Shown here: positions 4,719 through 24,732 of the stretch, piece by piece | Layout: every line of letters starts with the position of its first letter | Numbering within the stretch: position 1 is the first letter of the stretch | Origin: Thermoleophilia bacterium | GTDB taxonomy: Bacteria; Actinomycetota; Thermoleophilia; Miltoncostaeales; Miltoncostaeaceae | Length of the DNA: 32,000 nt | NCBI GenBank assembly: GCA_050181915.1 | Contig: JBFXCS010000002.1 | Span: 481,820-513,819, forward strand | Direction of reading: 5' to 3' | Made by a program: the position numbers and the translations under genes | The notes under the pieces: model-generated | Told to the model about the DNA's origin: nothing | Seen by the model: the letters and a program-made list of their open reading frames with translations, nothing else | The model's database searches: none

Positions 4719-5326
4719 CTCCCCGCTTCATCGCCCTCGAGGGTATCGACGGCAGCGGAAAGAGCACGCAGGCGCGGTTGCTCGCCGATGCGCTGGAGGA
4801 GCGCGGCATCGCCGTGGAGCGCACCCGCGAGCCGGGCGGCACGGTGCTGGGCGAGCGCGTCCGCGAGCTGGTGCTGTCGGGGCTGCCCGGCGAGATCGGC
4901 CTGGTGGCCGAGGCGCACCTGTTCGCCGCCGCCCGCGCCGAGCTGATGGACCGCGTGGTCGGGCCGTCGCTCACCGCCGGCCGGTGGGTGGTCACCGATC
5001 GCTTCATCGACTCGTCGCTCGCCTACCAGGGAGCGGCCCGCGGCCTCGGCATCGACCTCGTGCTCGGCATCAACCGCAGCGCGGTGGGCAGCCGCCTTCC
5101 GGACCTGTCGCTGGTGATCGACCTGCCGCCCTCGCTGGCGACGACGCGCCGCTGCGCCTCGGCGGACCGCATCGAGGCGGAGGGCGACGGCTTCCAGGCG
5201 CGCGTCGCCGCGGGGTACCGGGAGCTGGCGCGGCGCTTCCCAGACCGGGTGCGGCTGGTGCCCGGTGAGGGCGACGTGCAGGAGGTGCACGCCCGCGTGC
5301 TGGCCGCCGTCGGGATCTTCCCGTGA
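4661..5326 (+). CDS. tmk: dTMP (thymidylate) kinase
   Basis: FIALEGIDGSGKSTQ P-loop and RTREPGGT, DRF..SSLAYQG motifs. The ATG at 4661 is the only canonical start, but codons 4661-4711 have poor GC3, so the true start may lie near 4712. Confidence 0.85.
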   Translation: MPRHRRGDPDGRAAGPPLVTPRFIALEGIDGSGKSTQARLLADALEERGIAVERTREPGGTVLGERVRELVLSGLPGEIGLVAEAHLFAAARAELMDRVVGPSLTAGRWVVTDRFIDSSLAYQGAARGLGIDLVLGINRSAVGSRLPDLSLVIDLPPSLATTRRCASADRIEAEGDGFQARVAAGYRELARRFPDRVRLVPGEGDVQEVHARVLAAVGIFP

Positions 5327-7209: not shown

Positions 7210-7282
7210 GCCGACGTAGCTCAGCTGGTAGAGCACTTCACTCGTAATGAAGGGGTCCGGGGTTCGAGTCCCCGCGTCGGCT
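7210..7282 (+). tRNA. tRNA-Thr (anticodon CGT)
   Basis: 73-nt cloverleaf. Acceptor GCCGACG/CGTCGGC, D arm AGCTCAGCTGGTAGAGC, anticodon loop CT-CGT-AA, T arm CGGGGTTCGAGTCCCCG. No encoded CCA. Confidence 0.95.
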
Positions 7283-7973
7283 CTACGATCTCGGGCCGTG
7301 AATGGCCAAGCCCCCGCCAATGCCCCCGCCTTTTCCATCGAGAGGCCGTCGGACCCCGCCTCCCGCGGCCCCCATCGACCACCGTCATCTGCACGAAGTC
7401 GTTCATCGCGAAGTAGGTGCGCGTGGCCCGCACCCGGTGGACCCGTCCGCGGCGCCAGCGCTCCGGCACGTGGCCGGCCAGCTTCACCGGATCAGCGCTG
7501 TAGGCGACCATCGCCAGTGGATCCCGGATCGCCTCCGCCCACGCCCTCCCACCGCCCAGCACGCCCGCCCAGGCGCGATGTGCCACCTCCTGCGCCTGAT
7601 CCGCCTGCTCGGCCCGGACGCCCTTCACCAGCAGGTGCAGGTGCGGCGCCCCGTCCAGATGCAGGACCGCGCAGTCCTGCCAGCCGGTGGCCAGCACCCT
7701 GCCGGCGGCCCTGACCCGCTCCAGCGCCCGCCTCACGTCCGCCAACGCCGGCAGGGGCCGCGGCATCGTCAGGGTGAGGGCGACCGTCGGCGGGTCGCGG
7801 CGGGCGTCATCGAGCAGCCGTCGGCGCCAGGCCCGGCCCTTCGCCGGCCCGCAGGCGGGGCAGGTCCAATGCCCGCACCGCACCCGCCGCACGACCCGCC
7901 CGCTCGGCGAGCGCTCGATCCACGGAGACGGGCACCGGGGCCGTCCCCGTACATCCTCTCCCTTAGCCCCCAC
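7221..7973 (-). CDS. RepSA/HUH-type replication initiator-like protein, probably 3'-disrupted
   Basis: Zinc-knuckle-like CGHWTCPACG, followed by VALTLTMP and an HUH-like APHLHLLVKG. GC3 collapses after about 7375, and the frame only stops inside tRNA-Thr (C-terminal EPTRGLEPRTPSLRVKCSTS is antisense tRNA). The start is ambiguous: GTG at 7973, while a strong RBS plus ATG at 7952-7954 is in another frame. Confidence 0.5.
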   Translation of the reverse strand: MGAKGEDVRGRPRCPSPWIERSPSGRVVRRVRCGHWTCPACGPAKGRAWRRRLLDDARRDPPTVALTLTMPRPLPALADVRRALERVRAAGRVLATGWQDCAVLHLDGAPHLHLLVKGVRAEQADQAQEVAHRAWAGVLGGGRAWAEAIRDPLAMVAYSADPVKLAGHVPERWRRGRVHRVRATRTYFAMNDFVQMTVVDGGRGRRGPTASRWKRRGHWRGLGHSRPEIVEPTRGLEPRTPSLRVKCSTS

Positions 7974-7988
7974 GGCCGGGGCCCCGCT

Positions 7989-8318
7989 CTACGCCCGCGC
8001 CCTCTCACGGCGTGGTCGATCCAACCGCACAGAGGCCTCGACCTCGGATCGCAGCAACAGCAGCCGGCCGCCCTGCTTGTGCGCCGTGAGTGCCCCGGTG
8101 TAGATCCGGTCACGGACCTGCGCGGCCGTGAGCCGCAAGTGCTCGCCCGCCTCGCTGGTCGTCATGTAGGGCGACTTCGTCGGCGCCGTGTCCGGGGTCG
8201 TGGTGATCTCGGCCACCTGGCGCTGCACCTCGGCGCGGACGATCTCGGCCACCTGGCGCTGCACCTCGGTGGCGATGAGGTCCGCGAGGCCGTCCAGGAT
8301 CGCCTCGGCCGGGGTCAC
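7989..8318 (-). CDS. excisionase-family (MerR-like) helix-turn-helix DNA-binding protein
   Basis: YMTTSEAGEHLRLTAAQVRDRIYTGALTAHKQGGRLLLLRSEV matches the excisionase/HTH_17 pattern. GTGA overlap with the upstream gene. Confidence 0.65.
   Translation of the reverse strand: MTPAEAILDGLADLIATEVQRQVAEIVRAEVQRQVAEITTTPDTAPTKSPYMTTSEAGEHLRLTAAQVRDRIYTGALTAHKQGGRLLLLRSEVEASVRLDRPRRERARA
8205..8276. repeat. 36-bp in-frame tandem duplication (2 copies)
   Basis: GATCTCGGCCACCTGGCGCTGCACCTCGG occurs at 8205-8233 and again at 8241-8269, 29/29 identical. It encodes the duplicated peptide EVQRQVAEI in the excisionase-like protein. Confidence 0.9.
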
Positions 8319-8920
8319 GGCCGGCCCCCGATCCGACGAGCTGCACCCCGGGCCGCCGAAGCGGCGCGGTAGGCCCTCGCGGCGTCCGCCGGGCTCCCGG
8401 ACCGCTCGGCCCGTTCGCCGACCGCGGAGAGCCGCTCCGCCTCGCGCTCGAGCTCGGCGATCGCCCAGGCGCGTGGGCTGCCAGCCGGTGGGGGCGGAGG
8501 GTCGTCGCCATCGCCGGGCGCGCGCGGCCGAGCCGCCCGGCGATGGCCCGGGCGGCCGTGGGGTGTGCGGGCGCGGGCCGGCCCCCGTCCTACGGCACTG
8601 GCCGCGTCGAGGTCGCGCAGTCGTAGCCGCAGGACTACGCGCCAGCGGCAGAAGGCCTCGCGGCGCTGGCGGGCCAGGCGCTCGACCTCATCGGCGTGAC
8701 CGTGATGCTGACGGTGGCGCCATCCGTCGGCTGTTGCCTCGGCGGCGAGCTGCCAGGTGCCTTCGTGGTGGTCGACGCGGTCGAGGACATCATCCACGTC
8801 TACACCGAACAGGTGTGCCACGGAGCGCGGCTCCTCGCCGGCCGCGACCCACCTGGCCGCCGCGTCGAGCGCCGCCTCCTCGGCGAGCCGCGCACCGGCG
8901 GCGCGCAGGGCGGCGACCAT
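8315..8920 (-). CDS. hypothetical protein of the mobile-element module
   Basis: High GC3 from the first canonical in-frame ATG (8918-8920). The upstream part of the 289-aa ORF crosses the AT-richer intergenic region. Coupled by GTGA to the excisionase-like gene. Confidence 0.4.
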   Translation of the reverse strand: MVAALRAAGARLAEEAALDAAARWVAAGEEPRSVAHLFGVDVDDVLDRVDHHEGTWQLAAEATADGWRHRQHHGHADEVERLARQRREAFCRWRVVLRLRLRDLDAASAVGRGPARARTPHGRPGHRRAARPRAPGDGDDPPPPPAGSPRAWAIAELEREAERLSAVGERAERSGSPADAARAYRAASAARGAARRIGGRP

Positions 8921-9138
8921 GGCCGCGTCGTCAACCAGGGTGGTCGGGATCAGGTTCGCCGGCGATGCCGGCGACGGGGCGCTTGACCCCGGGTCTAGCG
9001 CGTTGATCGTGCGCTCATGAACATCTCTCCCGTGAGTGCGTTGCGGCCCGCTCCGTTGCTGACTCCGGGGCGGGCCGCCTTGATTTTTACGGAGCACTTG
9101 TAGCACCCTCTGCGCGGCACAGAATATCGCCAATAGCA

Positions 9139-9218
9139 GGTGATTCACATACGCACACCTAAGGTGACGTATCGGGTGATTCACCTATTCACATCTAAAG
9201 TGACGAGAGGAGATTCAC
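9139..9218. promoter_or_regulatory. iteron/operator-like repeats: two 31-bp direct repeats and three GTGAnTCAC-type palindromes
   Basis: GGTGATTCACATACGCACACCTAAGGTGACG (9139-9169) versus GGTGATTCACCTATTCACATCTAAAGTGACG (9175-9205), 26/31 identical. Core copies are GTGATTCAC at 9140 and 9176 and GAGATTCAC at 9210. This is the locally AT-richest stretch, between divergent genes. Confidence 0.55.
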
Positions 9219-9220
9219 GG

Positions 9221-9568
9221 GTGAGCACCGACACTGCCGCGCCTGTCGAGATCATCAACGAAGCGGTCAACGTGATCCGCCGCCCGCCTTCCCACCTCCT
9301 GCGCCCGTTCGGCGACGCGGTTCAGGCCGAAGTCCGCCGCCGCGCCGACGATCTTGCGAGGGATCCGGACTGGCTCACCTGCGCCGAGGCGGCCCGCCGC
9401 GCGGGCGTGGGCGGCCGCGCGAGTGGGGGCTCGAACCTCGGACATCCGCCGGGCTCCGCAGATCCGGGACGCCATCGTAGGCGACCCGCCGCCGGCACCG
9501 GTACCTGCGCCGTCCGGTCCGCGCGGGTACGGTCCCCCGCGACTGAAGGCATTCGTTCCTTTTGTTGA
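9221..9568 (+). CDS. hypothetical protein (possible degenerate HTH)
   Basis: GTG start 8 nt after the RBS GAGAGGAG. GC3 is high up to about 9420 (..DWLTCAEAARRAGV, HTH-like) and poor afterwards. Confidence 0.35.
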   Translation: MSTDTAAPVEIINEAVNVIRRPPSHLLRPFGDAVQAEVRRRADDLARDPDWLTCAEAARRAGVGGRASGGSNLGHPPGSADPGRHRRRPAAGTGTCAVRSARVRSPATEGIRSFC

Positions 9569-9569
9569 A

Positions 9570-9602
9570 TTGACAAGTGGCATGGCATCCGCGTGCTATC
9601 CT
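9570..9602 (+). promoter_or_regulatory. candidate promoter of the defence operon
   Basis: Consensus -35 TTGACA at 9570-9575. The downstream candidates TGCTAT (18-nt spacer) and TATCCT (21-nt spacer) are both imperfect. Confidence 0.3.
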
Positions 9603-9627
9603 GGCAGACACGATGGAGGGGAACCCG

Positions 9628-9972
9628 ATGACCGACGAGCTTCAGCGCCGACAGGAGATCGGCCGCAACATCCGCGCCGCCCGCGACCGGGAGGGCCTCA
9701 CCCTCCAGGAGCTCGCCGCGCGCGTCGGCGGCGACGCGTCGCGCCTCAGCCGGATCGAGAGCGGGGGGAGGGGCATCGACAGCGTCCTGCTGTTCGACAT
9801 CGCCGACGCCCTCGATGTGTCGGTCGACTCGCTCCTTGTGAGCGGGCGCTTGGCGGCGTTCGCCCGGGGCGAGCGCCAGCCGGGTGAGGACGACCCCCAC
9901 GTGCGCTGGGGGATGCGGATGATCGAGGAGATCCAAGCCGCCGAGCGCCTCGTGAGGCGATATGGCCTCTGA
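9628..9972 (+). CDS. XRE-family helix-turn-helix regulator (CapH/ImmR-like)
   Basis: ATG at 9628, 8 nt after the RBS GGAGGGG. IGRNIRAARDREGLTLQELAARVGGDASRLSRIESGGR is a canonical XRE HTH. Overlaps the next gene by 11 nt. Confidence 0.8.
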   Translation: MTDELQRRQEIGRNIRAARDREGLTLQELAARVGGDASRLSRIESGGRGIDSVLLFDIADALDVSVDSLLVSGRLAAFARGERQPGEDDPHVRWGMRMIEEIQAAERLVRRYGL

Positions 9973-10756
9973 CCTTCGCCCGGAGCCGCCCTGGCTGGCC
10001 GGAGAGCGCGCCGCGCGCGCGCTGCGCTTCGAGCTCGGCCTCGGCCACGGGCCGATCGACATCTATGACGTCATCGAGCAGCGCGGCGTGGCGATCGCCT
10101 TCCGTGATCTGGGAGGCGACGACGGGCGCTACATCTTCCACAACGGCAAGGGGCTGATCCTCGTCACCTCCACCTGCGAGGAGGCCTCGCGGCAGCGGTT
10201 CACCGCCGCGCACGAGCTCGGGCATCACGAGCTGCACCGCTTCGACGCCAACGGCGAGGTCGAGACAATTCTGATCGACAAGACGGTCCTCGGCACCGGC
10301 GGCGACGCGCGCGAGCAGGCGGCCAACTCGTTCGCGGCGCGGCTGCTGCTGCCGACCGAGGCCCTTGAGGCGCGCTTTTCGGAGCGGCAGGACGTCACCG
10401 TCGAGCAGGTCGGCGAGCTCATGGACCGCTTCGGGCTCTCCTACACGGCGACCGTGTTCATGCTCCACAACGCCGGCCGGATCAGCAACGCCCGCCGTGA
10501 CGCTCTGCGCCGCGAGGGCGAGGGTCTCGTGCACCGGCTGTCGGCCCGCTCGGAGGAGCCGCGCAAGGCCGAGCCGCCGCACGAGCTTCAGCGCCAGCTG
10601 GCCAAGCTTTACCGGGCCGGGCTGGTGCCCGCCGAGCGCCTGGCGGAGCTCACCGGCATGTCGGTGGAGCAGGTCGCCGAGGAGTACGGCCCGCCCGAGG
10701 AGCCGGAGACCGACATCGGCAACCTCCTGCGCGAGATCGAGGGCGAGGAGGCCTGA
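9962..10756 (+). CDS. ImmA/IrrE-family (M78) zinc metallopeptidase (CapP/ImmA-like)
   Basis: HEXXH motif in FTAAHELGHHELH, downstream EQAANSFAARLLLP, and the typical XRE-ImmA gene pair. Confidence 0.85.
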   Translation: MASDLRPEPPWLAGERAARALRFELGLGHGPIDIYDVIEQRGVAIAFRDLGGDDGRYIFHNGKGLILVTSTCEEASRQRFTAAHELGHHELHRFDANGEVETILIDKTVLGTGGDAREQAANSFAARLLLPTEALEARFSERQDVTVEQVGELMDRFGLSYTATVFMLHNAGRISNARRDALRREGEGLVHRLSARSEEPRKAEPPHELQRQLAKLYRAGLVPAERLAELTGMSVEQVAEEYGPPEEPETDIGNLLREIEGEEA

Positions 10757-10758
10757 CC

Positions 10759-11421
10759 GTGGAGGAGGCCCTCGACCCGGAGGATCTCGAGGTGGGCACC
10801 GATACGTCGGTGCTCATCGACCTCGCCGAGGGCAAGGTGTTCCAGGGCCTCCACGAGCTCTTTCCGGCTGTCGGGCTGCCCGGCATGGTCAAGCAGGAGC
10901 TCGAGCGGCGCACCTCGCGCCTCAACACCATGGTTCTCGCCGCCGACTGGCTCGTCCCCATCCGGGCCGAGGAGCCCGAGGACCTCGGGTTCATCGCCGA
11001 CCTGCACCGCAGCCTGGGAGGCCCGCCCAAGAACGCCGGCGAGGCGGAGCTGATCGCGCTCGCGCGGCGCCACGACTGGGTCGCCCTGATCGAGGACAAC
11101 GCCCGCAGGGTGGCGATCCGCGAGGGCGTGCACGTGATCCGCCTGAGCACCCTCGCCGCCGCCGCGGCCGCCTGCGAGGTCGTCCCGGTCGACCGCGCCT
11201 GGGGCCTTCACCGCGGGTTCCACATGCGCCGCCCACCGCAGCGGATGCCGGCGATCGGCACCACGCCGGCTGACCGCGACCGCTTCGACCGAGCGGTCGA
11301 CGCGATCGGAGTCCTGGCTGGCCATCGCGGGCGCCCCGCCTGGCCCGGGCTCCTGCGCCATCCGACCCTCAAGCCCGGCCAGCTCGATGAGCTCGTGCGC
11401 CAGATCGGCGAGCGGCCGTGA
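10759..11421 (+). CDS. PIN-like (DUF3368-type) predicted nuclease with a ~70-aa C-terminal extension
   Basis: GTG start 2 nt after the ImmA stop, RBS GAGGAGG. Acidic PIN-like positions: GTDTSVLIDL, NAGEAELIALARRHDWVALIEDNARRVAIREGVHVIRLSTL. Confidence 0.55.
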   Translation: MEEALDPEDLEVGTDTSVLIDLAEGKVFQGLHELFPAVGLPGMVKQELERRTSRLNTMVLAADWLVPIRAEEPEDLGFIADLHRSLGGPPKNAGEAELIALARRHDWVALIEDNARRVAIREGVHVIRLSTLAAAAAACEVVPVDRAWGLHRGFHMRRPPQRMPAIGTTPADRDRFDRAVDAIGVLAGHRGRPAWPGLLRHPTLKPGQLDELVRQIGERP

Positions 11422-12656
11422 CGAGCACCGCGCCGATGCCGGGCGCGGCCGTCCGACCCGCGGACGGCGAGCCCCTGCGCGCGTTCGCCTCCTACAGCTG
11501 GAAGGCGCCCGCGGACATCGAGAGCATCGCCCGGCTCGTCATCGAGCTCCGCCTGCGCGGCTTCGTCACCTTCAGGGATGCAGAGGCGATGCCGCCGGCG
11601 GGTGGCATCGAGGCGGTCATCCGCGCCGAGCTCGCCCGCAGCACGGTCTTCGTGCCGTATTTGACCCCCGACTCGCTCGAGAGCGACCCGGTCGTCGACC
11701 TCGAGTTCCACACCGCCGCCGAGCTCCGGCGCCTGCAGGGCTCACCCGTCGTCCTGCCCGTGGCGCGCAACCTCGGCACGGACCGCAACAAGCTCACCAC
11801 GGCGACCTGGGCCCGCCTGCAGCATGACTTCTCCGCTCAATGGAACACGTTCCCCGGGCCCGGCGACGGACCACTCGATCTCGCCGACGCCGCCGCCCAC
11901 GCGAACAACGCGCTCCGCGCGAGCTTCGCCGAGGGCGCCGGGCCCGCGGACGGATGCTGGGAGCTGGGCCTGGCGACCCGCGGTGAGCGGCCGCCGCCCA
12001 CCCAGCTGACCGTCGATGCGACTGGCCTCGTCGGCGGTCCGGATGCCCGAGCCGGGTCTCTGGAGGACTGGGAGAGGATCTTCGCGGGCCTCTGCGACCT
12101 GAAGCGGGCCCTCACCGCCCATGGCCGCCGCCGCCGGATCCTTCTTCGCCCGGCCTGCCATCTGAGCGCCGCCCTCGCCGTCGGTTGGGTGTTCCGCCGG
12201 GCGGCCGGCTGGCGGCTGGAGGTGGCACATGAGGACGTCGAATGCCGCTCCTCCGACACGCTCGAGCACCCGGGGCTCGTGGTCACACGCGACTACGGCG
12301 CCTTCAGCGCCCGCGGCGGGCGCCTCGTCGTCTGCATCGACCTGGTTCCGCGCGGTATCCGCGACAGCGTCATCCGGGCGCAGGCCGCCGCGCCGCGGGC
12401 GGTGCTGTCGATCAGCGCCGCCGACGGCTCCCTCCGGATCCCGGTCGACGAGCTCGGCGCGATGGCTGGCGCCGCCGCGGCGGCGATCAAGGACCTCCGC
12501 GGCGAGACCCACGCCGAGGAGGTCGCCCTCTACCTGGCGAGTCCCGCACCCTTCGCGGCGCTTCTCGGCGCCGAGTTCGGCGCGCTCGGCTGCCCGCTGC
12601 TGCTGCACGAGCACGACAACGCCACCTACCAGCCCTCCATCGTGATCCCGGGGTGA
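11418..12656 (+). CDS. TIR-SAVED fusion protein (predicted cyclic-oligonucleotide-activated NADase effector)
   Basis: The N-terminal ~130 aa are TIR-like: FASYSWK...LRGFVTFRDAE...STVFVPYLTPDSLESDPVVDLEF. The C-terminal ~280 aa resemble SAVED: ILLRPACHLSAALAVGWVFRR...ALYLASPAPFAALLGAEFG. GTGA overlap with the PIN-like gene. Confidence 0.7.
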   Translation: MTSTAPMPGAAVRPADGEPLRAFASYSWKAPADIESIARLVIELRLRGFVTFRDAEAMPPAGGIEAVIRAELARSTVFVPYLTPDSLESDPVVDLEFHTAAELRRLQGSPVVLPVARNLGTDRNKLTTATWARLQHDFSAQWNTFPGPGDGPLDLADAAAHANNALRASFAEGAGPADGCWELGLATRGERPPPTQLTVDATGLVGGPDARAGSLEDWERIFAGLCDLKRALTAHGRRRRILLRPACHLSAALAVGWVFRRAAGWRLEVAHEDVECRSSDTLEHPGLVVTRDYGAFSARGGRLVVCIDLVPRGIRDSVIRAQAAAPRAVLSISAADGSLRIPVDELGAMAGAAAAAIKDLRGETHAEEVALYLASPAPFAALLGAEFGALGCPLLLHEHDNATYQPSIVIPG

Positions 12657-12658
12657 CC

Positions 12659-13627
12659 ATGACCGCCGACGCCTACTACCGCCAACTGCTGAAGGACATC
12701 GCCGTTCCGATGGAGGACATCGAGGCCGCCCGCGAGGCGCGCGACGACCTCGGCGCCGCGGCCGTCGAGATCCTGAAGGGCTGGGGCCTCGGGTCCCCGG
12801 GGTTCTTCGCCGCCGGCGCGCTCGCGGCTGGCACCCAGATCGCCCCCCTGAACGACGTGGATCTCGTCGTTCGGGCGAACAAGATCCGCACTGGTTGGAA
12901 GGACGCGCCGCGGAGGGCGCTCGAGGACCTCTGCGTGGCGATGGGTGCGGTCGGCTATACCTGCGAGACCGGCGCCCACGCGGTCAAGGTGATGTTGCCC
13001 GGTGAGCGGTTCACCGCCGACGTCGTCTTCGGGTGCGTACATCCCGAGCAGGGTCTGTGGATCCCGCACTGCCCCAAGGGCGAGGTGCCGGCCTGGATCC
13101 GGACCGACCCGAAGGCGCACCGCGACCAGGTCAAGCAGCGCAATCGTGACCTCGGGGTCGAGTTCGCGCGGGAGATCCGGATCGCGAAGGCGCTGAACCG
13201 CAAATGGGCGCTCGCCGACGCTGAGGGCCGAAAGCCGCTCAGCTCGTTCCACATGACCGCGCTCGCGCTCGCCCTCATCACAACACCGGTCGACCACGCC
13301 CGGACAACCCCGCGCTTCCTCGAGGCGGCGGCCCGCCGTGTCCTGACACCCATGCGCGACCCGGCCGGCGTCGGACCCGATCTCGAGGCCCGGGACCCCG
13401 CCCGTGCGTCAGCCCTGCTGGCGGAGGCGGCTCGGCTCACCCGCGAGGCCCTCGCGGCCGGCGACGACGCCGAGCGGATCCTGCGCACGGTGTTCGGGGA
13501 TCCGGCGACCACGACCGGTCTCGCGGCAGGCAGGCGAGCGAGCGTCGTGGTCGGCGGGACGCTCGCCCTCGGCACGGCGGGCCGGGCGGTCGGGATGGGT
13601 CGCTCCTATGGGGACCTGGCCCGCTAG
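12659..13627 (+). CDS. CD-NTase / SMODS-type nucleotidyltransferase (second-messenger synthase)
   Basis: ATG 2 nt after the TIR-SAVED stop. Pol-beta NTase signature GALAAGTQIAPLNDVDLVV (G[SA]x10DxD), third acidic residue in FTADVVFG, then WIRTDPKAH and IRIAKALNRKW as in CD-NTases. Confidence 0.75.
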   Translation: MTADAYYRQLLKDIAVPMEDIEAAREARDDLGAAAVEILKGWGLGSPGFFAAGALAAGTQIAPLNDVDLVVRANKIRTGWKDAPRRALEDLCVAMGAVGYTCETGAHAVKVMLPGERFTADVVFGCVHPEQGLWIPHCPKGEVPAWIRTDPKAHRDQVKQRNRDLGVEFAREIRIAKALNRKWALADAEGRKPLSSFHMTALALALITTPVDHARTTPRFLEAAARRVLTPMRDPAGVGPDLEARDPARASALLAEAARLTREALAAGDDAERILRTVFGDPATTTGLAAGRRASVVVGGTLALGTAGRAVGMGRSYGDLAR

Positions 13628-14315
13628 CGCCAGCCGCCGGGCCGGCGGCCGATCCCACGCGCGCCGCCGGCGGCACCTCGCCCGCCAGCGCCTGCATCGC
13701 GTCCAGCGCCGTGCGCTGCGCCACCTGCGGCGGGCGAAGGCTCGCCGGAAAGCCCGCCCTTGGCGCGGCTGGTGGGAGCGGCATCCGCTCGACCTTGTGG
13801 CGCTCGAGGCCGGCTTTCCTCCCGAGTACGCGGGTTTCGAGCGTCGGATCGTCGGCCGTGCGCTCGTCTACAACGGGATCGTCGAGGTGCCGGACGTCGG
13901 TGCGCGCCGTCTGGCACTCATCTTCGCCGAGCGGCCGGGGCTGCGCGCGCCGATCGTGATGGCCGACGGGCCGCGTCGCTCCCGCCACCGCTACCGCTGG
14001 GCGCGGCCCACCTCCCTCTGCATCTGGCACCCCGATGATCCGCCGCCGGATCGCTGGAGCCTGCGCGAGGGGCTCGTTGGACTCATCGACCGAGCGCGGG
14101 TGCACCTGTTCCTCGAGGCGTGGTGGCGGGTGAGCGGCCGGTGGGACGCCCCCGAGGTCCATCGCGAGCCCCGGGGCGATGAGCGCGCAGGGGCGGGACG
14201 GGTCCGCCGAAAGGTTGCTCGCCAGTGGTGCTGGTGCGGAACTCGCCGCTACAGCGCATGCCACGGGGCGATCTCCGAGGCCAGCGAACTCACGGCCGTA
14301 GGCCTCGGCGGCTGA
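13608..14315 (+). CDS. E2/UBC-like protein with a C-terminal SEC-C zinc-knuckle motif
   Basis: HRYRWARPTSLCIWHPDDPPPDRWS resembles the E2 HPN...C...W core, after a beta-meander-like YNGIVEVPDVGARRLALIF. The C-terminus CWCGTRRYSACHG matches the SEC-C pattern. The start is uncertain: ATG at 13608 overlaps the cyclase by 20 nt, and the next in-frame GTG is at about 13797. Confidence 0.45.
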   Translation: MGTWPASASRRAGGRSHARRRRHLARQRLHRVQRRALRHLRRAKARRKARPWRGWWERHPLDLVALEAGFPPEYAGFERRIVGRALVYNGIVEVPDVGARRLALIFAERPGLRAPIVMADGPRRSRHRYRWARPTSLCIWHPDDPPPDRWSLREGLVGLIDRARVHLFLEAWWRVSGRWDAPEVHREPRGDERAGAGRVRRKVARQWCWCGTRRYSACHGAISEASELTAVGLGG

Positions 14316-14386
14316 CCCGGCCGGCGCCCGCCGGCGCGTTGCGAACACCCGCGTCCACGTCAGCGGCGCCGGTTAGGGTGGGCTTC

Positions 14387-14612
14387 ATGGCCACCTCCGT
14401 GACGCTTCCCAACGGCGAGGGCGAGTTGCCCTTCGCACGCACCCTGTTCGAGGCATGCGATCGGCTCCGCGGGCATGTGGAGTTGGCCGAGTACAACACT
14501 TGGTGCTCGGCCTGATCTTCCTGAAGCACATCTCCGACGCCTTCGAGCGCCGGCGCGCCGCACTCGACGCCGAGACCGGCCGCCCCGAGTCCGCCCTCTA
14601 CACCGAGGAGGG
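14387..14612 (+). pseudogene. hsdM: type I restriction-modification methylase (HsdM) 5' fragment, frameshifted and truncated
   Basis: LFEACDRLRGHVELAEYN continues in another frame as HLVLGLIFLKHISDAFERRRAALDAE, the HsdM N-terminal signature. This implies a 1-nt deletion near 14495-14498. Similarity ends at about 14611-14625. Confidence 0.6.
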
Positions 14613-15060
14613 CGCGAGCGGTGCGGTCCGCTGTGGATGCGGTGGCCGACCCGTTCGATGCGGCCGAGCTTCTTGACGTCGATGTGGATCAGCTCGCCGG
14701 GATGGGCGCCGTCGTGGGTGGCGGGTAGGCAGTTAAGGCCCGAGCGGGTGAGCACCGCCCGCACGGTGCGCTCGGCAACGCCGAAGTCGCCGCGATGCGG
14801 GTGCCACTGAACCGCAGTTCGCGCAGCGCGCAGATCGCGTCCTCAACCTCGGCCGGTGTCCGGTGGGCAGCCGGGTGGGCTGCCGGGGGGCGGTCCTCCA
14901 GGTCGTGGTCGCCGGCCCGCCGGCGGCGCCCAGCCACTCCCGGGCGCGGCGCTCGTTCAGGCCGGCCGCCTCGGCGGCCTGCCTGAGCGTCCATCCCTCA
15001 TCCTCGACGGCACAACAACCGTCGTGAGGCCGGGCACGTCCTGGCGTTCTGATGAAGTGT
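14613..15060 (-). mobile_element. IS481-family transposase pseudogene (N-terminal part only, several frameshifts)
   Basis: Pieces lie in three frames on the minus strand: LHQNARTCPASRRLL; VEDEGWTLRQAAEAAGLNERRAREWL; RTPAEVEDAICALRE; ERTVRAVLTRSGLNCL...PGELIHIDVKKLGRIERVGHRIH. The DDE core after that point is missing. Confidence 0.6.
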
Positions 15061-15110
15061 CACCGCCGGGTCTCCTCTTGGCAGGTTGCTCGGCTCGCAA
15101 CCCGAAGCCT

Positions 15111-19073: not shown

Positions 19074-20180
19074 TCAACCGGCCTGCGGCGGCGCGGCGGG
19101 CAGCCGCACGGTGGCGCGAAGCCCTCCCTCGGTGCGGGGGGCGAGGGTGAGGGTCCCGTCGTGCGCCTGGACGATGCTCCTGACGATCGCCAGGCCGAGG
19201 CCGACGCCGGCGTGGTCGGTGCGGATGCGTCTGCTGCCGCGCTGGAACGGCTCGGCGAGCGTGGCGACCAGCTGGGGGGTGAGCTGCTCGCCGGTGTTCT
19301 CGACCGTGAGCGCCGCTCCCCCGGGGTGAGCGCCGGTCGTGACCCACACGGTGCCGCGGTCGGGCAGGTTGTGGACGATCGCGTTGTGCACGAGGTTCAT
19401 CGCCATCTGCAGCAGCAGGGCGGGTGAGCCGACGGTGGGGGTCATGTCGCCGGAGGTCTCGATGGTGGCGCCGCGCCGCTCCGCGAGGGGCAGCAGCGAC
19501 TCGGTGGCCTCCTCGGCGATGAGGGACAGGTCGGCGTGCTCGCGGACGAATGACCGCTGATCGGCGCGGCTGAGCAGGAGCAGCGCCTCGGTGAGGTCGA
19601 TCGCCCGGGTGTTGACCGCGCGGAGGCGGTCGATGAGCTCGTCGTCGTCGCGGCTCGGATCCTTGCGGGCCACGTCGAGCAGCGTCTGCGTGACCGCCAG
19701 CGGGGTGCGCAGCTCGTGGGAGGCGTTGGCGGCGAACCGCTGCTGCTCCGCGACCTGCGCCTCGAGGCGCGCGAGCATGGCGTCGAAGGCGTCGGCGAGC
19801 TCGCGGAACTCGTCCCGGCGGCCATGCAGCCGGATGCGGTGGGAGAGCGATCCGCTCGCGGCCAGGCGCGTGGCGTCGGTGATGCGGTCCAGCGGGGTGA
19901 GCATCCGGCCGGCCAGGATCCAGCCGCCCAGGAGGCCGAACACCAGCAGGAAGGCCAGCGCGATGGCCGCCTTCGGGGCGAAGGCGTCGAGCAGGTCGGA
20001 GCGGTTGGGGATGAAGGGGGCGGGCGCGCGATCGGGCCCCACCAGGATCACCCTGTCGGGTACGTAGCGCAGCAGGAACACCCACACGACCGCGAGCAGC
20101 AGGGCTCCCGCCACCATCAGGAAGCCGGCGTAGCTGAGGGTGAGCTTGAGGCGGACGCTCAGGCCGGGGGATCTATCCAC
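19074..20180 (-). CDS. vanS: VanS-type sensor histidine kinase
   Basis: Two N-terminal TM helices with a short loop, a HAMP domain, H-box ASHELRTPL, N-box NLVHNAIVHN, G-box GVGLGLAIV. Overlaps vanR by 8 nt and is adjacent to vanHAX. Confidence 0.8.
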   Translation of the reverse strand: MDRSPGLSVRLKLTLSYAGFLMVAGALLLAVVWVFLLRYVPDRVILVGPDRAPAPFIPNRSDLLDAFAPKAAIALAFLLVFGLLGGWILAGRMLTPLDRITDATRLAASGSLSHRIRLHGRRDEFRELADAFDAMLARLEAQVAEQQRFAANASHELRTPLAVTQTLLDVARKDPSRDDDELIDRLRAVNTRAIDLTEALLLLSRADQRSFVREHADLSLIAEEATESLLPLAERRGATIETSGDMTPTVGSPALLLQMAMNLVHNAIVHNLPDRGTVWVTTGAHPGGAALTVENTGEQLTPQLVATLAEPFQRGSRRIRTDHAGVGLGLAIVRSIVQAHDGTLTLAPRTEGGLRATVRLPAAPPQAG

Positions 20181-20856
20181 GGTCCCCTTCCCCGCGCCCG
20201 CCGTCGATGCGGTACCCGGCGCCGGGCACGGTGGCGATGATCCAGGGCTCGCCGAGGCGCTTGCGCAGCGCCGAGACCGTGATGCGCACCGCGTTGGTGA
20301 ACGGGTCCGCGTTCCGATCCCAGGCCCGCTCCAGCAGCTCCTCCGCGCTGACGACGCCGCCCTCGGCGGCGACCAGGACCTCGAGCACCGCGAACTGCTT
20401 GCGGGTGAGCGGGACGTAGCGGCCGTCGCGGTAGACCTCGCGGCGGAACGGGTCGAGGCGCAGGCCGGCGATCTCGCGCACGGGCGGGCGGTGGTGGGCG
20501 CGGCGGCGGTCGAGCGCCCTGAGGCGGAGCACGAGCTCGCGGAGCTCGAACGGCTTCGTGAGGTAGTCGTCGGCGCCGAGCCCGAACCCGGAGGCCTTGT
20601 CGTCGAGACGGTCGGCGGCGGTCAGCATGAGGATCGGCATGCCGCTGCCGGAGGCGACGATCCGTCCGGCGATCTCGTCGCCGGACGGCCCGGGGATGTC
20701 CCGGTCGAGGACGGCGATGTCATAGGCGTTGGCGCCCAGCAGCTCCAGGGCGGTGTCGCCGTCACCCGCGATGTCCGCCGCGATCGCCTCCAGCCGCAGC
20801 CCGTCGCGGATGGCCTCCGCCAGATAGGGCTCGTCCTCGACGAGCAGCACGCGCAT
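20173..20856 (-). CDS. vanR: VanR-type OmpR/PhoB-family response regulator
   Basis: MRVLLVEDEPYLAEAIRDGLRLEAIAADIAGDGDTALELL...DIAVLDRDIPGPSGDEI...TKPFELRELVLRLRAL plus a winged-helix C-terminus. As I recall it, this closely matches actinomycete VanR. Confidence 0.85.
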   Translation of the reverse strand: MRVLLVEDEPYLAEAIRDGLRLEAIAADIAGDGDTALELLGANAYDIAVLDRDIPGPSGDEIAGRIVASGSGMPILMLTAADRLDDKASGFGLGADDYLTKPFELRELVLRLRALDRRRAHHRPPVREIAGLRLDPFRREVYRDGRYVPLTRKQFAVLEVLVAAEGGVVSAEELLERAWDRNADPFTNAVRITVSALRKRLGEPWIIATVPGAGYRIDGGRGEGDRG

Positions 20857-20877
20857 CCGCCGATGCTAACCGAGCCG

Positions 20878-20943
20878 CGCATATCGTCGGCATATCGGAA
20901 ACCGCATACGCGCCGGCAACGCCGCCGGCCCTGAGATGGCGGC
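20878..20943 (+). promoter_or_regulatory. van promoter module copy A (also faces vanR divergently)
   Basis: ATATCG-N5-ATATCG (20881, 20892), invariant CATACGCGCCGGCAACGC, -10-like TGAGAT (20932-20937), GTG at 20944. On the minus strand, TAGCAT (20863-20868) lies 6 nt before the vanR ATG. Confidence 0.6.
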
Positions 20944-21021
20944 GTGACCTCCAGTGAGCCGGGACGAACAGCGGTCCGCGCCCGATCGACCGTCCCCGTC
21001 GGCTCCGCCCGTGCGGCATGA
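20944..21021 (+). CDS. possible 25-codon leaderless upstream ORF coupled to the carboxypeptidase gene
   Basis: GTG sits exactly 20 nt after the module core, as in copies B and D. VTSSEPGRTAVRAR parallels the N-termini of VanH (MIRGEPRRTATRR) and the VanY-like protein (VTHGEPARTMRRVR). Its TGA overlaps the ATG at 21018 (ATGA). Confidence 0.25.
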   Translation: MTSSEPGRTAVRARSTVPVGSARAA

Positions 21022-22052
21022 GCACGAGGCCGCGGCCGCGCCGCGGGACGGCGGCCCTGTACCGTCGCCGCCGCCGACGCGCGCTGATCGGCGCGATCAT
21101 CGCCCTCCTCCTCGCGGCCGCGGCCTTCGCGCCGCCCCTCCACCTGCTCGACGACGGCGGCCGCGGCTCCCCGCCCGACCTCTCGGGCAGCGGCGCGCCG
21201 CGCGACGACGCGGACAGCGCCTACCTGTCGACGGACGGATGGCCGCTTCAGGGCCAGGGGGCGTACGTGATCGGCGACGGCCGGCCGGCGGTGAGCCCCC
21301 ACCAGCGGCCGGTCCCGATCGCCAGCGTGGCGAAGGTGATGACCGCCTACCTCGTGCTCAAGCACCATCCGCTGCGGGCCGGCGAGAGCGGCCCGCTGTT
21401 CACGGTCACCCAGGACGACGTCGAGGACACCGAGGCGAGGCTCCGAGGGGGCCAGTCGGTGGTCCCCGTCAGCGCCGGCGAGCAGCTCACCGAGCGGGAT
21501 GCCCTCATGGCGATCCTGCTGCCGTCGGCGAACAACGTCGCGGTGCTCGTCGCGCGTCAGGTCTCCGGCAGCGTCCCCGCCTTCGTCGAGGAGATGAACC
21601 GCACCGCGCGCGAGCTGGGGATGTCCCAGACGACCTACACCGATCCGAGCGGATACGACGACGGCACGGTGTCGACGGCCCTCGACCAGCTGCGCCTGGC
21701 GCGGGTGGTGGCCGAGGACGAGACGCTGGCGGCCATGATGGCCACCCGCACCCACTGGCTGCCGGTCGCCGGCGAGGTGACCAACACCAACGCCCTGCTC
21801 GGCCATGACGGCTTCGTCGGCATGAAGACCGGCTCGCACCAGGCGGCCGGCGGCTGCCTGATGTTCCGGGTCGTGTGGCCCACCGGCGGCGGCGACGTGA
21901 CGCTGATCGGCGTGGTGCTCGGCCAGCGGGGGGACAGCCTGATCACCGCGGGACACGATGCGGCCGAGCAGCTGGCGGACCGCCTGGCGCCGGAGGCGTA
22001 TCGCCCGCATATCGAAAACCCCATACGCGCCGGCAACGCCCCGCCGCCTTGA
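21018..22052 (+). CDS. serine-type D-Ala-D-Ala carboxypeptidase (S11, PBP5/DacB-like), membrane anchored
   Basis: N-terminal Arg-rich segment plus a TM helix. Carries the SxxK (SVAKVMT), SxN (PSANN) and KTG (MKTGSH) motifs. The 3' end runs through van module copy B. Confidence 0.8.
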   Translation: MSTRPRPRRGTAALYRRRRRRALIGAIIALLLAAAAFAPPLHLLDDGGRGSPPDLSGSGAPRDDADSAYLSTDGWPLQGQGAYVIGDGRPAVSPHQRPVPIASVAKVMTAYLVLKHHPLRAGESGPLFTVTQDDVEDTEARLRGGQSVVPVSAGEQLTERDALMAILLPSANNVAVLVARQVSGSVPAFVEEMNRTARELGMSQTTYTDPSGYDDGTVSTALDQLRLARVVAEDETLAAMMATRTHWLPVAGEVTNTNALLGHDGFVGMKTGSHQAAGGCLMFRVVWPTGGGDVTLIGVVLGQRGDSLITAGHDAAEQLADRLAPEAYRPHIENPIRAGNAPPP

Positions 22053-22060
22053 CTGGATGC
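21996..22060 (+). promoter_or_regulatory. van promoter module copy B (vanHAX-murF operon)
   Basis: GTATCG-N5-ATATCG (21998, 22009), CATACGCGCCGGCAACGC, TTGACT (22049-22054), ATG at 22061. Confidence 0.6.
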
Positions 22061-24707: not shown

Positions 24708-24732
24708 GGGCCGGCGGTGTCCGGGGTGACGG

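What the first reader, a model, noticed from the sequence alone, without database searches (positions are those of the whole stretch)
13608..14315. E2/UBC-like protein with a C-terminal SEC-C zinc knuckle and an Arg-rich N-terminus, overlapping the cyclase 3' end
The segment VYNGIVEVPDVGARRLALIF...PIVMADGPRRSRHRYRWARPTSLCIWHPDDPPPDRWS mimics the E2 beta-meander followed by HPN-x(n)-C-x-W, so Cys in SLCIW is the candidate active site. The protein ends with CWCGTRRYSACHG, a SEC-C-type CxCG-x3-Y-x2-CH motif. No E1 or JAB gene is present. The only canonical start that keeps the long open frame (ATG 13608) overlaps the cyclase by 20 nt and adds an unusual ~60-aa Arg-rich helix-like region. The alternative GTG near 13797 would leave a 170-nt gap that nevertheless has high GC3 in this frame. 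An E2-only regulator bearing SEC-C is not something I can place in described CBASS types.
Basis: inference. Interest (0 to 1): 0.65.

Follow-up and report, generated by a model that had tools for sequence, protein, structure and literature searches.

The report
E2-only CBASS regulator with extra tails
This gene encodes the E2-like regulator of an already described kind of bacterial anti-phage system (E2-only, or "type II short", CBASS), but in a rare form that carries a very basic N-terminal helix and a SecA-type zinc knuckle, neither of which has a known role.

Summary
ORF 13608-14315 (+) encodes a 235-aa protein with a UBC/E2 fold, an invariant Cys138 (SLCIW), a conserved CWCG-x3-Y-x2-CH tail and a polybasic N-terminus. 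Its ATG overlaps the cyclase gene by 20 nt.

The protein is an E2 and Cys138 is the active-site Cys. However, "E2-only" CBASS is a described class (type II short, or E2-CBASS). There the E2 acts without an E1: a His-Cys protease-like dyad trims the cyclase tail after a conserved Gly and binds the cyclase covalently. All elements of that scheme are present here:
- His127/Cys138 align with SmE2 His87/Cys101.
- Cyclase Gly318, in a [YHF]-G-[DE] motif followed by a short tail, is invariant in 46/46 homologues.
- No E1 or JAB gene was found.

The operon is HTH, M78 peptidase, PIN-like gene, TIR-SAVED, CdnC/D-like cyclase, E2.

Two decorations appear undescribed. One is a 49-59-aa Arg/Lys helix (+21 charge), shown to be coding by start-codon conservation in 9/10 loci and dN/dS of 0.3-0.57. 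The other is a SEC-C knuckle; clade relatives pass Pfam's cut-off, while the window copy has lost one residue. A second E2-CBASS lineage carries a canonical SEC-C. The function of both decorations is inferred only, as polyanion or ribosome docking.

This is a new variant of a known kind, of moderate interest.

The parts
9577..9972 (+). HTH (XRE-type) regulator, CapH-like; first gene of the six-gene cassette
   Evidence: Pfam HTH_3 at 3.6e-11. PADLOC capH at 4.5e-08. Its end overlaps the next gene by 11 nt. The same gene is present in L005/L006/L040.
9962..10756 (+). M78/IrrE-type metallopeptidase, CapP-like
   Evidence: Pfam Peptidase_M78 at 4.3e-21. PADLOC capP at 7.4e-29.
10759..11421 (+). 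PIN-like protein, with DUF3368 assigned to its L040 orthologue; role unknown
   Evidence: PADLOC PDC-S70 at 1.5e-09. PF11848 DUF3368 is assigned to the L040 orthologue. Conserved at 58-89% identity in L005/L006/L040.
11418..12656 (+). TIR-SAVED effector (predicted cyclic-oligonucleotide-activated NADase)
   Evidence: Pfam SAVED at 1.3e-12 and TIR_2 at 7.1e-08. PADLOC SAVED_TIR at 1.3e-33. The SAVED domain is nearest by sequence to the Cap4 structures 6vm6/6vm5.
12659..13627 (+). CD-NTase (322 aa), CdnC/CdnD-like
   Evidence: PADLOC Cyclase at 1.9e-25. AF2 pLDDT 91.9. Foldseek gives PaCdnD 6p82 at E=9.7e-14 with TM 0.70.
13502..13591 (+). Cyclase C-terminal helix plus three short strands (residues 282-311): a compact counterpart of the 'E2-binding motif' of E2-CBASS cyclases
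   Evidence: AF2 secondary structure shows H282-289, E294-296, E302-304 and E309-311, with pLDDT falling from 84 to 61. PMC12948482 describes an alpha-helix plus a three-stranded sheet as specific to E2-associated cyclases.
13610..13612 (+). Cyclase Gly318 codon, the predicted conjugation/cleavage residue. The tail D-L-A-R (13613-13624) is predicted to be removed.
   Evidence: G318 is invariant in 46/46 homologues, within [YHF]-G-[DENSV] followed by 0-5 residues. This is the same layout as SmCdnG Y405-G406-E407 (10.1101/2022.05.25.493364). The model is disordered over residues 314-322.
13608..14315 (+). E2-like regulator gene (235 aa), including the stop codon
13608..13769 (+). N-terminal polybasic extension (residues 1-54: 21 Arg/Lys, no Asp/Glu, net +21); predicted helix at residues 14-49
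   Evidence: AF2 helix with pLDDT about 96. Conserved length, composition and ATG in 9/10 loci. dN/dS 0.30-0.57. Charge computed.
13770..14177 (+). E2/UBC core (residues 55-190), from the WW motif to PEVH185
   Evidence: PADLOC E2 match over residues 91-186. Foldseek hit to 8yjy_B. Core profile A5 hits SmE2 at E=0.018.
13986..13988 (+). His127 codon, the predicted catalytic His
   Evidence: Invariant. Aligns with SmE2 His87.
14019..14021 (+). Cys138 codon, the predicted active-site Cys
   Evidence: Invariant. Aligns with SmE2 Cys101.
14229..14267 (+). SEC-C-derived metal knuckle C208-W-C210-G-T-R-R-Y215-S-A-C218-H219-G220
   Evidence: At least 90% conserved. Pfam SEC-C gives 11.9 bits in the window but 22.4-25.1 bits in clade members with x8 spacing. 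The profile weakly hits SecA zinc-domain peptides.
14268..14312 (+). Conserved C-terminal helix after the knuckle (E227, L228, L231, G232)
   Evidence: These positions are nearly invariant. AF2 helix at residues 224-231 with pLDDT about 90.

Best explanation
The ORF is the E2 subunit of an E2-only ('type II short', E2-CBASS) anti-phage operon made of TIR-SAVED, a CD-NTase and the E2. A CapH/CapP-like regulator pair and a PIN-like gene lie upstream.

The proposed mechanism is transferred from the characterised Serratia system and was not tested here.
1. The E2 docks on the C-terminal helix and mini-sheet of the cyclase.
2. The disordered cyclase tail threads into the E2 active site. The His127-Cys138 dyad cleaves after Gly318, removing D-L-A-R, and leaves the cyclase bound to Cys138 as a thioester. 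No E1 or ATP is needed.
3. This covalent state, and its transfer to lysines, controls cyclase activity.
4. The cyclase has a CdnC/D-like fold and probably makes a cyclic trinucleotide. That signal binds the SAVED domain and switches on the TIR NADase, stopping the infected cell.

The gene starts at ATG 13608, inside the cyclase Tyr-Gly codons, so the two genes are translationally coupled.

This clade adds two modules to the roughly 150-aa E2. One is a 49-59-residue Arg/Lys helix. The other is a SecA-type Cys3His knuckle followed by a conserved short helix. My inference (low confidence, about 0.35) is that together they dock the E2 or the E2-cyclase adduct on a polyanionic partner, either nucleic acid or the ribosome. 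That would place or gate the conjugation step.
For: Shown by tools:
- PADLOC E2 model at 1.5e-19.
- UBC fold with SmE2 (8yjy_B) as the top PDB match, E=9.3e-4.
- The core profile hits SmE2 at E=0.018 and aligns His127 with H87 and Cys138 with C101. Both residues are invariant across 56 diverse family members.
- Cyclase Gly318 is invariant in 46/46 homologues, followed by a 0-5-residue tail.
- The cyclase model has a C-terminal helix, three short strands and a disordered tail.
- The E2 gene lies immediately downstream of a cyclase homologue in every related locus that extends far enough upstream.
- TIR-SAVED lies upstream in L001-L007, L040 and L041.
- No E1 or JAB was found.
- The cyclase fold is nearest PaCdnD/EcCdnC and the SAVED domain is nearest Cap4.
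- The start codon and N-terminal extension are conserved.
- SEC-C homology is supported.
- A second E2-CBASS lineage has a canonical SEC-C in the same position.

From the literature:
- The E1-independent protease and conjugation mechanism of E2-CBASS (10.1101/2022.05.25.493364; PMC12948482).
- cA3 activation of TIR-SAVED (10.1101/2022.05.04.490601).
- The SecA SEC-C domain binds metal, SecB and ribosomes (10.1101/613315; PMC6620043).

Support for the docking idea:
- The extension has net charge +21 and no acidic residue.
- Its composition and length are conserved but no single position before W55 is. That fits polyanion binding better than a specific protein interface.
Against: - No biochemistry was done; the mechanism is transferred from a homologue with only 19% identity. 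The Foldseek TM-score is 0.38/0.53, and the sequence profile reaches SmE2 only at E=0.018.
- The acceptor lysine of SmE2 (K159) has no conserved counterpart. The tail after His185 has no conserved Lys, so the isopeptide-locked state may not exist here.
- The cyclase is short (322 aa) and CdnC/D-like. Published E2-CBASS cyclases are longer and 74% are clade G (PMC12948482).
- The catalytic loop is modelled with only moderate confidence (pLDDT 61-71).
- In the second SEC-C lineage the cyclases end in ...SRSWRP(TG) without the aromatic-Gly-acid motif, so the Gly rule is not universal.
- Nothing tested here bears directly on what the basic helix or the knuckle binds.
Confidence: 0.8

Rival explanations
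1. The appendages are purely structural. The SEC-C knuckle and the following helix replace the short C-terminal lid loop that covers the active site in SmE2 (residues 150-160, with H152 and K159). The basic helix packs on them. They would then regulate access to Cys138 within the molecule, with no external partner.
For: - The knuckle lies directly after the conserved PE(V/A)PH motif, which corresponds to the start of the SmE2 lid.
- Other E2-CBASS E2s carry a different Cys-rich tail at the same place (P0164, P0166 and P0171 end in CxxxC...CPSCxGRG). This suggests the tail is a variable structural element.
- The residues after the knuckle are conserved by position (E227, L228, L231, G232).
- AF2 places the helices with high confidence.
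Against: - A net charge of +21 with no acidic residue and no positional conservation is unusual for an intramolecular packing element.
- The E2 core and the cyclase are not acidic (pI 10.2 and 8.9), so nothing in the complex would neutralise it.
- Model coordinates could not be inspected.
Confidence: 0.3
2. The real start is GTG 13797 or another internal codon. The Arg-rich stretch would then be an untranslated leader or intergenic region that merely stays open in a 73% GC genome.
For: - Gene callers chose short forms for many homologues (171-198 aa).
- Long open alternative frames are common at this GC content.
- In the closest relative, L040, a 1-nt deletion breaks the extension and a new ATG appears at the position equivalent to 13800-13802, one codon after GTG 13797.
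- No strong Shine-Dalgarno sequence precedes 13608.
Against: - The conserved WW-x-x-x-P-L motif lies upstream of 13797 and is near-universal in the family, including the short E2s (W55 at least 90% conserved over 56 sequences).
- The ATG is conserved in 9/10 loci at the same place inside the cyclase YGD codons.
- There are 8 synonymous changes against 1 conservative change versus L040.
- dN/dS is below 1 in all seven pairs.
- Relatives with Lys-rich sequence keep the basic extension.
Confidence: 0.07
3. The protein is a catalytically inert UEV-like adaptor, or a protease-only maturase. It would bind or trim the cyclase tail but never form or transfer a covalent cyclase conjugate.
For: - There is no conserved acceptor Lys in the tail.
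- The HPN motif of canonical E2s is absent, and Pfam UQ_con gives no hit at E<=1.
Against: - Cys138 and His127 are invariant over the whole family and align with the residues needed for thioester formation in SmE2.
- UEV proteins lack the Cys.
- Cleavage by a Cys protease passes through the same acyl-enzyme thioester, so 'protease-only' differs only in the fate of the intermediate.
Confidence: 0.1

Closest known systems
E2-CBASS / type II (short) CBASS E2, prototype Serratia marcescens SmE2 (PDB 8yjy, 8hsb, 9kkb; Yan et al. bioRxiv 10.1101/2022.05.25.493364; Xiao et al. mLife 2026, PMC12948482)
   Same: - Stand-alone E2 encoded right after a CD-NTase, with no E1 or JAB.
- UBC fold without the C-terminal alpha3/alpha4 helices.
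- The His...Cys dyad is aligned (H127/C138 with H87/C101).
- A PE(V/A)PH-type His after the long helix.
- The cyclase has a C-terminal helix and small sheet, plus an aromatic-Gly-acidic end.
   Different: - 235 aa instead of about 160.
- An added 54-aa polybasic N-terminal helix.
- An added SEC-C-type knuckle and a conserved terminal helix.
- No conserved Lys equivalent to K159.
- The cyclase is 322 aa and CdnC/D-like rather than about 400 aa and clade G.
- The effector is TIR-SAVED instead of 2TM-SAVED.
- The gene order is effector-cyclase-E2.
- Sequence identity to SmE2 is only about 19%.
Type II CBASS Cap2 (E1-E2 fusion) with Cap3 (JAB), e.g. Enterobacter cloacae Cap2-CdnD02 (7to3)
   Same: An E2-type Cys accepts the cyclase C-terminus. 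The cyclase fold (CdnD-like) resembles that of these systems (7to3_C at E=3.2e-09).
   Different: No E1 adenylation domain and no JAB isopeptidase is found anywhere in the window. The catalytic His of E2-CBASS is present, which Cap2 E2 domains lack according to Yan et al.
SecA C-terminal metal-binding domain / SEC-C motif (PF02810; also YecA, YchJ)
   Same: - A CxC...CH ligand set with the conserved aromatic residue (Y215, matching SecA Tyr-893) and flanking basic residues.
- Clade members with x8 spacing pass Pfam's gathering score.
- The family profile picks up SecA zinc-domain peptides.
   Different: - The window copy has CxC-x7-CH (one residue shorter), with Thr in place of Ser-889, and scores below threshold (11.9 bits).
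- It is not at the extreme C-terminus; 15 more residues follow.
- It is attached to an E2, and no SecB or Sec context is evident.
MkeTIR-SAVED CBASS of Microbacterium ketosireducens (Hogrel et al., bioRxiv 10.1101/2022.05.04.490601)
   Same: An actinobacterial CBASS with a TIR-SAVED NADase effector and a cyclase that makes a cyclic trinucleotide (cA3), plus a ubiquitin-like ancillary system.
   Different: The paper describes that operon only as having a ubiquitin-like modification system, plus a NucC effector. Here the ancillary protein is an E2-only protein with extra domains. Product identity was not tested here.

Membership tests
E2-CBASS (type II short) E2 | UBC/E2 fold | tested here: met
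   The AF2 model (pLDDT 83.5, pTM 0.73) shows a four-strand meander, a Cys loop and a long helix. Foldseek's top hit is 8yjy_B at E=9.3e-4 with probability 1.0, followed by eukaryotic E2s.
E2-CBASS (type II short) E2 | Family HMM match | tested here: met
   PADLOC E2 PDLC00867 at E=1.5e-19, plus three further E2 models.
E2-CBASS (type II short) E2 | Active-site Cys equivalent to SmE2 C101 | tested here: met
   C138 is invariant in 37 and in 56 sequences. It aligns with C101 in the profile-to-8hsb_B alignment.
E2-CBASS (type II short) E2 | Catalytic His upstream of the Cys (SmE2 H87), specific to E2-CBASS | tested here: met
   H127 is invariant and aligns with H87.
E2-CBASS (type II short) E2 | Second His in the C-terminal lid (SmE2 H152) | tested here: inconclusive
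   H185 in PEVH is at least 90% conserved. In the ungapped HMM alignment it falls one position from H152.
E2-CBASS (type II short) E2 | Acceptor Lys in the C-terminal lid (SmE2 K159) for the isopeptide-locked state | tested here: not met
   No conserved Lys lies between H185 and C208. The linker is variable and Arg-rich.
E2-CBASS (type II short) E2 | Encoded next to a CD-NTase whose C-terminus has a conserved Gly followed by a short removable tail | tested here: met
   G318 is invariant in 46/46 homologues within [YHF]-G-[DENSV] plus 0-5 residues. Adjacency holds in all informative loci.
E2-CBASS (type II short) E2 | No E1 domain and no JAB peptidase in the operon | tested here: met
   No ThiF or JAB hits in the six operon proteins or in 18 other window ORFs selected as coding-like or neighbouring. 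Short or atypical ORFs were not all scanned.
E2-CBASS (type II short) E2 | Spontaneous, E1- and ATP-independent covalent cyclase-E2 adduct | not testable with these tools
   This needs co-expression and SDS-PAGE or mass spectrometry.
E2-CBASS cyclase (as described in PMC12948482) | Extended cyclase, predominantly clade G, with a C-terminal helix and three-stranded sheet as the E2-binding motif | tested here: inconclusive
   The cyclase is 322 aa and nearest to CdnD/CdnC, not CdnG. A C-terminal helix (282-289) and three 3-residue strands (294-311) are predicted, at pLDDT 84 falling to 61.
SEC-C motif (Pfam PF02810) | Score above Pfam's gathering cut-off (20.4 bits) | tested here: not met
   Window tail: 11.9 bits, E=0.22. 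Clade relatives do pass: L008 24.8, P0041 25.1, P0092 23.6, P0040 22.4 bits. The second lineage also passes: P0175 36.4 and P0121 27.5 bits.
SEC-C motif (Pfam PF02810) | CxC-x8-C[HC] ligand spacing with conserved Ser and aromatic residues (10.1101/613315) | tested here: not met
   The window has CWC-x7-CH. The Tyr is conserved (Y215) and Thr212 stands where the Ser would be. Relatives such as L008 (CWCGSGRKYTRCHG) keep x8 and the Ser. The window copy is therefore a one-residue-deleted derivative.
SEC-C motif (Pfam PF02810) | Binds Zn or Fe | not testable with these tools
   This needs metal analysis of purified protein.
Canonical UBC E2 (Pfam UQ_con) | HPN motif and family HMM match | tested here: not met
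   Pfam gave no family at E<=1. The sequence at the HPN position is S-R-H-R-Y.
Full type II CBASS (Cap2 E1-E2 plus Cap3) | E1 adenylation domain fused to the E2, and a JAB isopeptidase | tested here: not met
   The protein is 235 aa with no E1 region. No JAB or ThiF hit in the window.

The most novel reading that the evidence does not exclude
The E2 is itself the infection sensor of this CBASS. Its polybasic helix and SEC-C knuckle would bind a phage-derived or infection-altered polyanion (viral RNA or DNA, or the ribosome, as the SecA SEC-C domain does). That binding would release or trigger the E1-independent cyclase conjugation. Sensing would then be shifted from the cyclase to the ubiquitin-like ancillary protein.
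Probability: 0.15. Interest if true: 0.7.

Novelty: new variant of a known kind. Interest (0 to 1): 0.4.

Why it matters
How CBASS systems sense infection, and what the ubiquitin-like ancillary proteins contribute, is still largely open. For E2-only systems the in vivo trigger is unknown; only low pH in vitro has been reported.

This E2 clade has a conserved nucleic-acid-like binding tail and a SecA-type metal knuckle. A second lineage has independently acquired a canonical SEC-C at the same position. Together they give a concrete handle: the appendages can be deleted or mutated, and their partner pulled down. This would test whether the E2 localises or gates cyclase activation.

The case also shows that E2-CBASS is not restricted to long clade-G cyclases. 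In addition, automatic gene calls systematically truncate this protein: 171-198 aa calls against the real length of about 235 aa. That hides the N-terminal module from databases.

If the appendages prove to be only structural, the finding is an ordinary member of a known system.

Tried and rejected
- Pfam, NCBIfam and PHROGs gave no family for the E2. Only PADLOC recognised it.
- A sequence search of the PDB with the full family profile A1 found nothing at E<=1. A broader profile, A4, gave only weak hits to SecA zinc peptides, eukaryotic E2s and SmE2. A core-only profile, A5, was needed to reach SmE2 at E=0.018.
- The N-terminal 69 residues matched only ribosomal protein bL34 at E=2.2, which is compositional and not meaningful.
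- Foldseek against viral structures gave only insignificant giant-virus E2 hits, so there is no sign of a phage-encoded mimic.
- The scan of species-representative genomes found one relative, a Solirubrobacteraceae MAG. The family is known almost only from metagenomes, and source names are all 'hypothetical protein'.
- A cyclase-E2 fusion made by ribosomal frameshifting was considered because natural fusions exist (P0090, P0116, P0135, P0157) and the E2 frame is open 261 nt upstream of the ATG. I rejected it. The conserved ATG sits at or after the Gly codon in 9/10 loci. A fusion made upstream of it would lose Gly318.
- I looked for an att-type repeat of the tRNA-Thr 3' end to delimit an island and found none.
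- I looked for a terminator after the E2 gene. The consensus scan found none there, and the local hairpin is no better than shuffled sequence (z=-0.25).
Full report
**1. What is at 13608-14315**

The window is 73% GC. On the + strand the frame is open from 13347 to the TGA at 14313-14315. The in-frame start codons are GTG 13404, ATG 13608 and GTG 13797.

**2. The protein is an E2**

- Pfam, NCBIfam and PHROGs give nothing. PADLOC's CBASS 'E2' model matches residues 91-186 at E=1.5e-19.
- A search of 5.8 billion proteins found 36 homologues, all unnamed and almost all from metagenomes.
- In their alignment G83, V92, R100, P110, G121, H127, R128, W131, L137, C138, D144, W150 and others are invariant.
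- AlphaFold2 on this alignment gave pLDDT 83.5 and pTM 0.73. The model shows a four-strand meander (78-119), a short strand carrying Cys138 and a long helix at 152-176.
- Foldseek against the PDB puts the E2 of the Serratia marcescens CdnG-E2 complex first (8yjy_B, E=9.3e-4, probability 1.0), followed by eukaryotic E2s at E of about 0.2.
- A profile of the E2 core built from 26 diverse family members hits the same chain by sequence (E=0.018). It aligns His127 with SmE2 His87 and Cys138 with Cys101. The conserved PEVH185 falls within one position of His152.

**3. The neighbourhood is a CBASS operon without E1 or JAB**

Six tightly packed genes lie on the + strand:

| Coordinates | Gene | Evidence |
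|---|---|---|
| 9577-9972 | HTH regulator (CapH-like) | |
| 9962-10756 | M78 peptidase (CapP-like, PADLOC 7.4e-29) | |
| 10759-11421 | PIN-like protein (PADLOC PDC-S70; DUF3368 in the L040 orthologue) | |
| 11418-12656 | TIR-SAVED | |
| 12659-13627 | CD-NTase (PADLOC Cyclase 1.9e-25) | |
| 13608-14315 | E2 | |

None of the other coding-like ORFs of the window hits ThiF/E1 or JAB families; they are housekeeping genes.

In related loci the E2 always follows a cyclase homologue. TIR-SAVED precedes the cyclase in L001-L007, L040 and L041. L010 has a DUF6602 protein there instead. The HTH-M78-PIN trio recurs in L005/L006 and L040.

**4. This class is already described**

E2-only CBASS is 'type II (short)' or 'E2-CBASS', reported in 616 genomes. 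In the Serratia system the E2 needs no E1.
- A Cys101-His87 dyad removes the residue after the conserved C-terminal Gly406 of the cyclase (…Y405-G406-E407).
- It forms a Gly-Cys thioester. This interconverts with an isopeptide to Lys159 in a C-terminal lid and supports cyclase-cyclase chains that activate the enzyme (bioRxiv 10.1101/2022.05.25.493364).
- The cyclases of these systems carry an extra C-terminal helix and a three-stranded sheet that docks the E2 (PMC12948482).

**5. The cyclase fits the scheme, with differences**

- Forty-six homologues all end in [YHF]-G-[DENSV] plus 0-5 residues. Gly318 is invariant; in the window the end is …R-S-Y-G318-D-L-A-R.
- The AF2 model (pLDDT 91.9) has a C-terminal helix (282-289), three short strands (294-311) and a disordered tail (314-322). 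This is a compact version of the described E2-binding motif.
- Unlike most published E2-CBASS cyclases (longer, 74% clade G), this one is 322 aa. It is closest by sequence and fold to CdnD/CdnC.
- The SAVED domain is closest to Cap4, which senses cyclic trinucleotides. An actinobacterial TIR-SAVED is activated by cA3 (10.1101/2022.05.04.490601). A cyclic trinucleotide signal is therefore likely, but this is inferred.

**6. The start codon and the Arg-rich N-terminus**

- The conserved WW-x3-P-L motif (W55 at least 90% conserved even among distant short E2s) lies upstream of GTG 13797. That start would cut into the conserved domain.
- In 9 of 10 loci an ATG lies 49-59 codons upstream of WW. It overlaps the cyclase stop by 11-20 nt and sits within the conserved cyclase Tyr-Gly-Asp codons, always in the +1 frame.
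- The extension is 37-48% Arg+Lys with at most one acidic residue. In the window it carries 21 basic and no acidic residues.
- Pairwise dN/dS is 0.30-0.57, against 0.12-0.22 for the core.
- Against the closest relative the changes downstream of the cyclase stop are 8 synonymous and 1 Lys-to-Arg.
- Members whose own sequence is Lys-rich rather than Arg-rich keep the basic extension (P0045, P0023, L010).
- AF2 predicts a helix at residues 14-49 with pLDDT of about 96.
- No individual position before W55 is conserved. The constraint is on charge and length, not on a specific surface.
- Gene callers often truncated the protein. The exact 235-aa sequence is not in the protein collection.

**7. The C-terminal knuckle**

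- CWCG-x3-Y-x2-CHG is present in 35 of 36 close homologues.
- In the window it scores only 11.9 bits against Pfam SEC-C (cut-off 20.4) and has x7 instead of x8 spacing.
- Members of the same E2 clade with x8 spacing pass the cut-off: L008 CWCGSGRKYTRCHG 24.8, P0041 25.1, P0092 23.6, P0040 22.4 bits.
- The family profile weakly retrieves the SecA zinc-domain peptides 1tm6, 1ozb and 1sx0.
- The window copy is thus a one-residue-deleted SEC-C derivative. It keeps the three Cys, the His and the conserved Tyr. For SecA the motif is CxC-x8-CH with Ser-889 and Tyr-893 (10.1101/613315).
- It is followed by a positionally conserved short helix (E227, L228, L231, G232).

**8. How widespread the architecture is**

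A profile search of 1.84 billion cluster representatives found 384 relatives.
- Most are 140-165-aa E2s ending soon after '…WLGPEAPH'.
- A few are cyclase-E2 fusions.
- About 16 of the top 150 carry the CWCG-type tail.
- Two distant members (P0121, P0175) end in a canonical SEC-C that passes Pfam (27.5 and 36.4 bits).
- Another small group ends in CxxxC…CPSCxGRG.

P0175 and P0121 are also encoded between a SMODS cyclase and a SAVED or TIR effector. Their starts overlap the cyclase 3' end by 13-19 nt. Their cyclases end in …SRSWRP(TG), not in aromatic-Gly-acid. E2 plus SEC-C therefore recurs in at least two E2-CBASS lineages.

My full-text searches found no paper linking CBASS E2 proteins with SEC-C. 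The only CBASS paper mentioning SEC-C concerns an unrelated lactococcal protein.

**9. Mechanism**

With high confidence (about 0.8) this is an E2-CBASS E2. It uses His127/Cys138 on the Gly318 tail of its cyclase, and translation of the two genes is coupled through the overlap.

One feature of the Serratia mechanism is not conserved: no Lys equivalent to K159 is found. The isopeptide-locked state may therefore be absent or use another acceptor.

The role of the appendages is inferred. The extreme, position-independent basic charge, together with a Cys3His knuckle whose SecA homologue binds ribosomes and SecB (PMC6620043; 10.1101/613315), suggests docking on nucleic acid or ribosomes. The main rival is an intramolecular lid replacing the SmE2 C-terminal loop.

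**10. Verdict**

The locus is a new variant of a known kind, with interest of about 0.4.

The most novel reading still open is that the decorated E2 is the infection sensor. I give that a probability of about 0.15.

Noticed in passing
window 7210-7283 and about 7300-15100: A tRNA-Thr(cgt) lies just upstream of the defence cassette. The stretch up to about 15.1 kb has locally lower GC (0.66-0.70 at 9.0-10.5 kb, against 0.73 overall). It ends in broken-looking ORFs. This looks like a tRNA-linked genomic island, but no att-type repeat of the tRNA 3' end was found.
   Followed up: partly
window 14225-14515 (+) and 14360-14994 (-): Directly after the E2 gene there is a short ORF whose product (MATSVTLPNGEGELPFARTLFEACDRLRGHVELAEYNTW...) reads like the N-terminus of a type I restriction-modification methylase that has been cut short. 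On the opposite strand, fragments read like a frameshifted IS481-type transposase (…HPGELIHIDVKKLGRIERVGHRI…). Pfam gave no hit at E<=1e-3 for the plus-strand ORF or for the 14363-14764 part of the minus-strand stretch, so both readings rest on my own recognition only.
   Followed up: partly
window 9577-11421; also L005/L006 838-2634 and L040 607-2412: An HTH, M78 peptidase and PIN-like (DUF3368/PDC-S70) trio precedes TIR-SAVED with overlapping or 2-nt junctions. It recurs in three related loci at 53-95% identity but is absent from L001-L004, L007 and L041. The first two genes resemble the CapH/CapP damage-responsive regulator pair. The role of the third gene is unknown.
   Followed up: partly
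L040 about 4750-4800 (equivalent to window 13750-13800): The closest relative (about 91% identical E2) has a 1-nt deletion that breaks the basic N-terminal extension just before the WW motif. At the same time GTG-GCG is changed to GCG-ATG, creating a new start at 'MLEAD'. This is either a natural loss of the basic helix or an assembly error in a Logan contig.
   Followed up: partly
L043 3997-5612 and L044 3973-5642: A second E2-CBASS lineage has a canonical, Pfam-passing SEC-C at the extreme C-terminus of the E2. Its gene order is cyclase, E2, SAVED/TIR effector. Its cyclases end in …SRSWRP(TG), without the aromatic-Gly-acid motif.
   Followed up: partly
proteins P0164, P0166, P0171: A third small group of short E2-CBASS E2s ends in a different Cys-rich tail (CxxxC in the last helix plus CPSCxGRG). 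Metal-binding tails therefore seem to be a recurrent add-on at this position.
   Followed up: no
L010 3087-3878: In some SEC-C-clade loci the gene before the cyclase is a DUF6602 protein (Pfam 4.3e-29) instead of TIR-SAVED. The decorated E2 is therefore not tied to one effector type.
   Followed up: partly
window 20173-26079: A response regulator, a DD-carboxypeptidase, a D-Ala-D-Ala ligase and a Mur ligase lie together. This is a cell-wall or van-like cluster unrelated to the finding.
   Followed up: no
window 8205-8276: Two tandem copies of a 36-nt unit (89% identical) lie in a region of uncertain coding status between the tRNA and the cassette.
   Followed up: no
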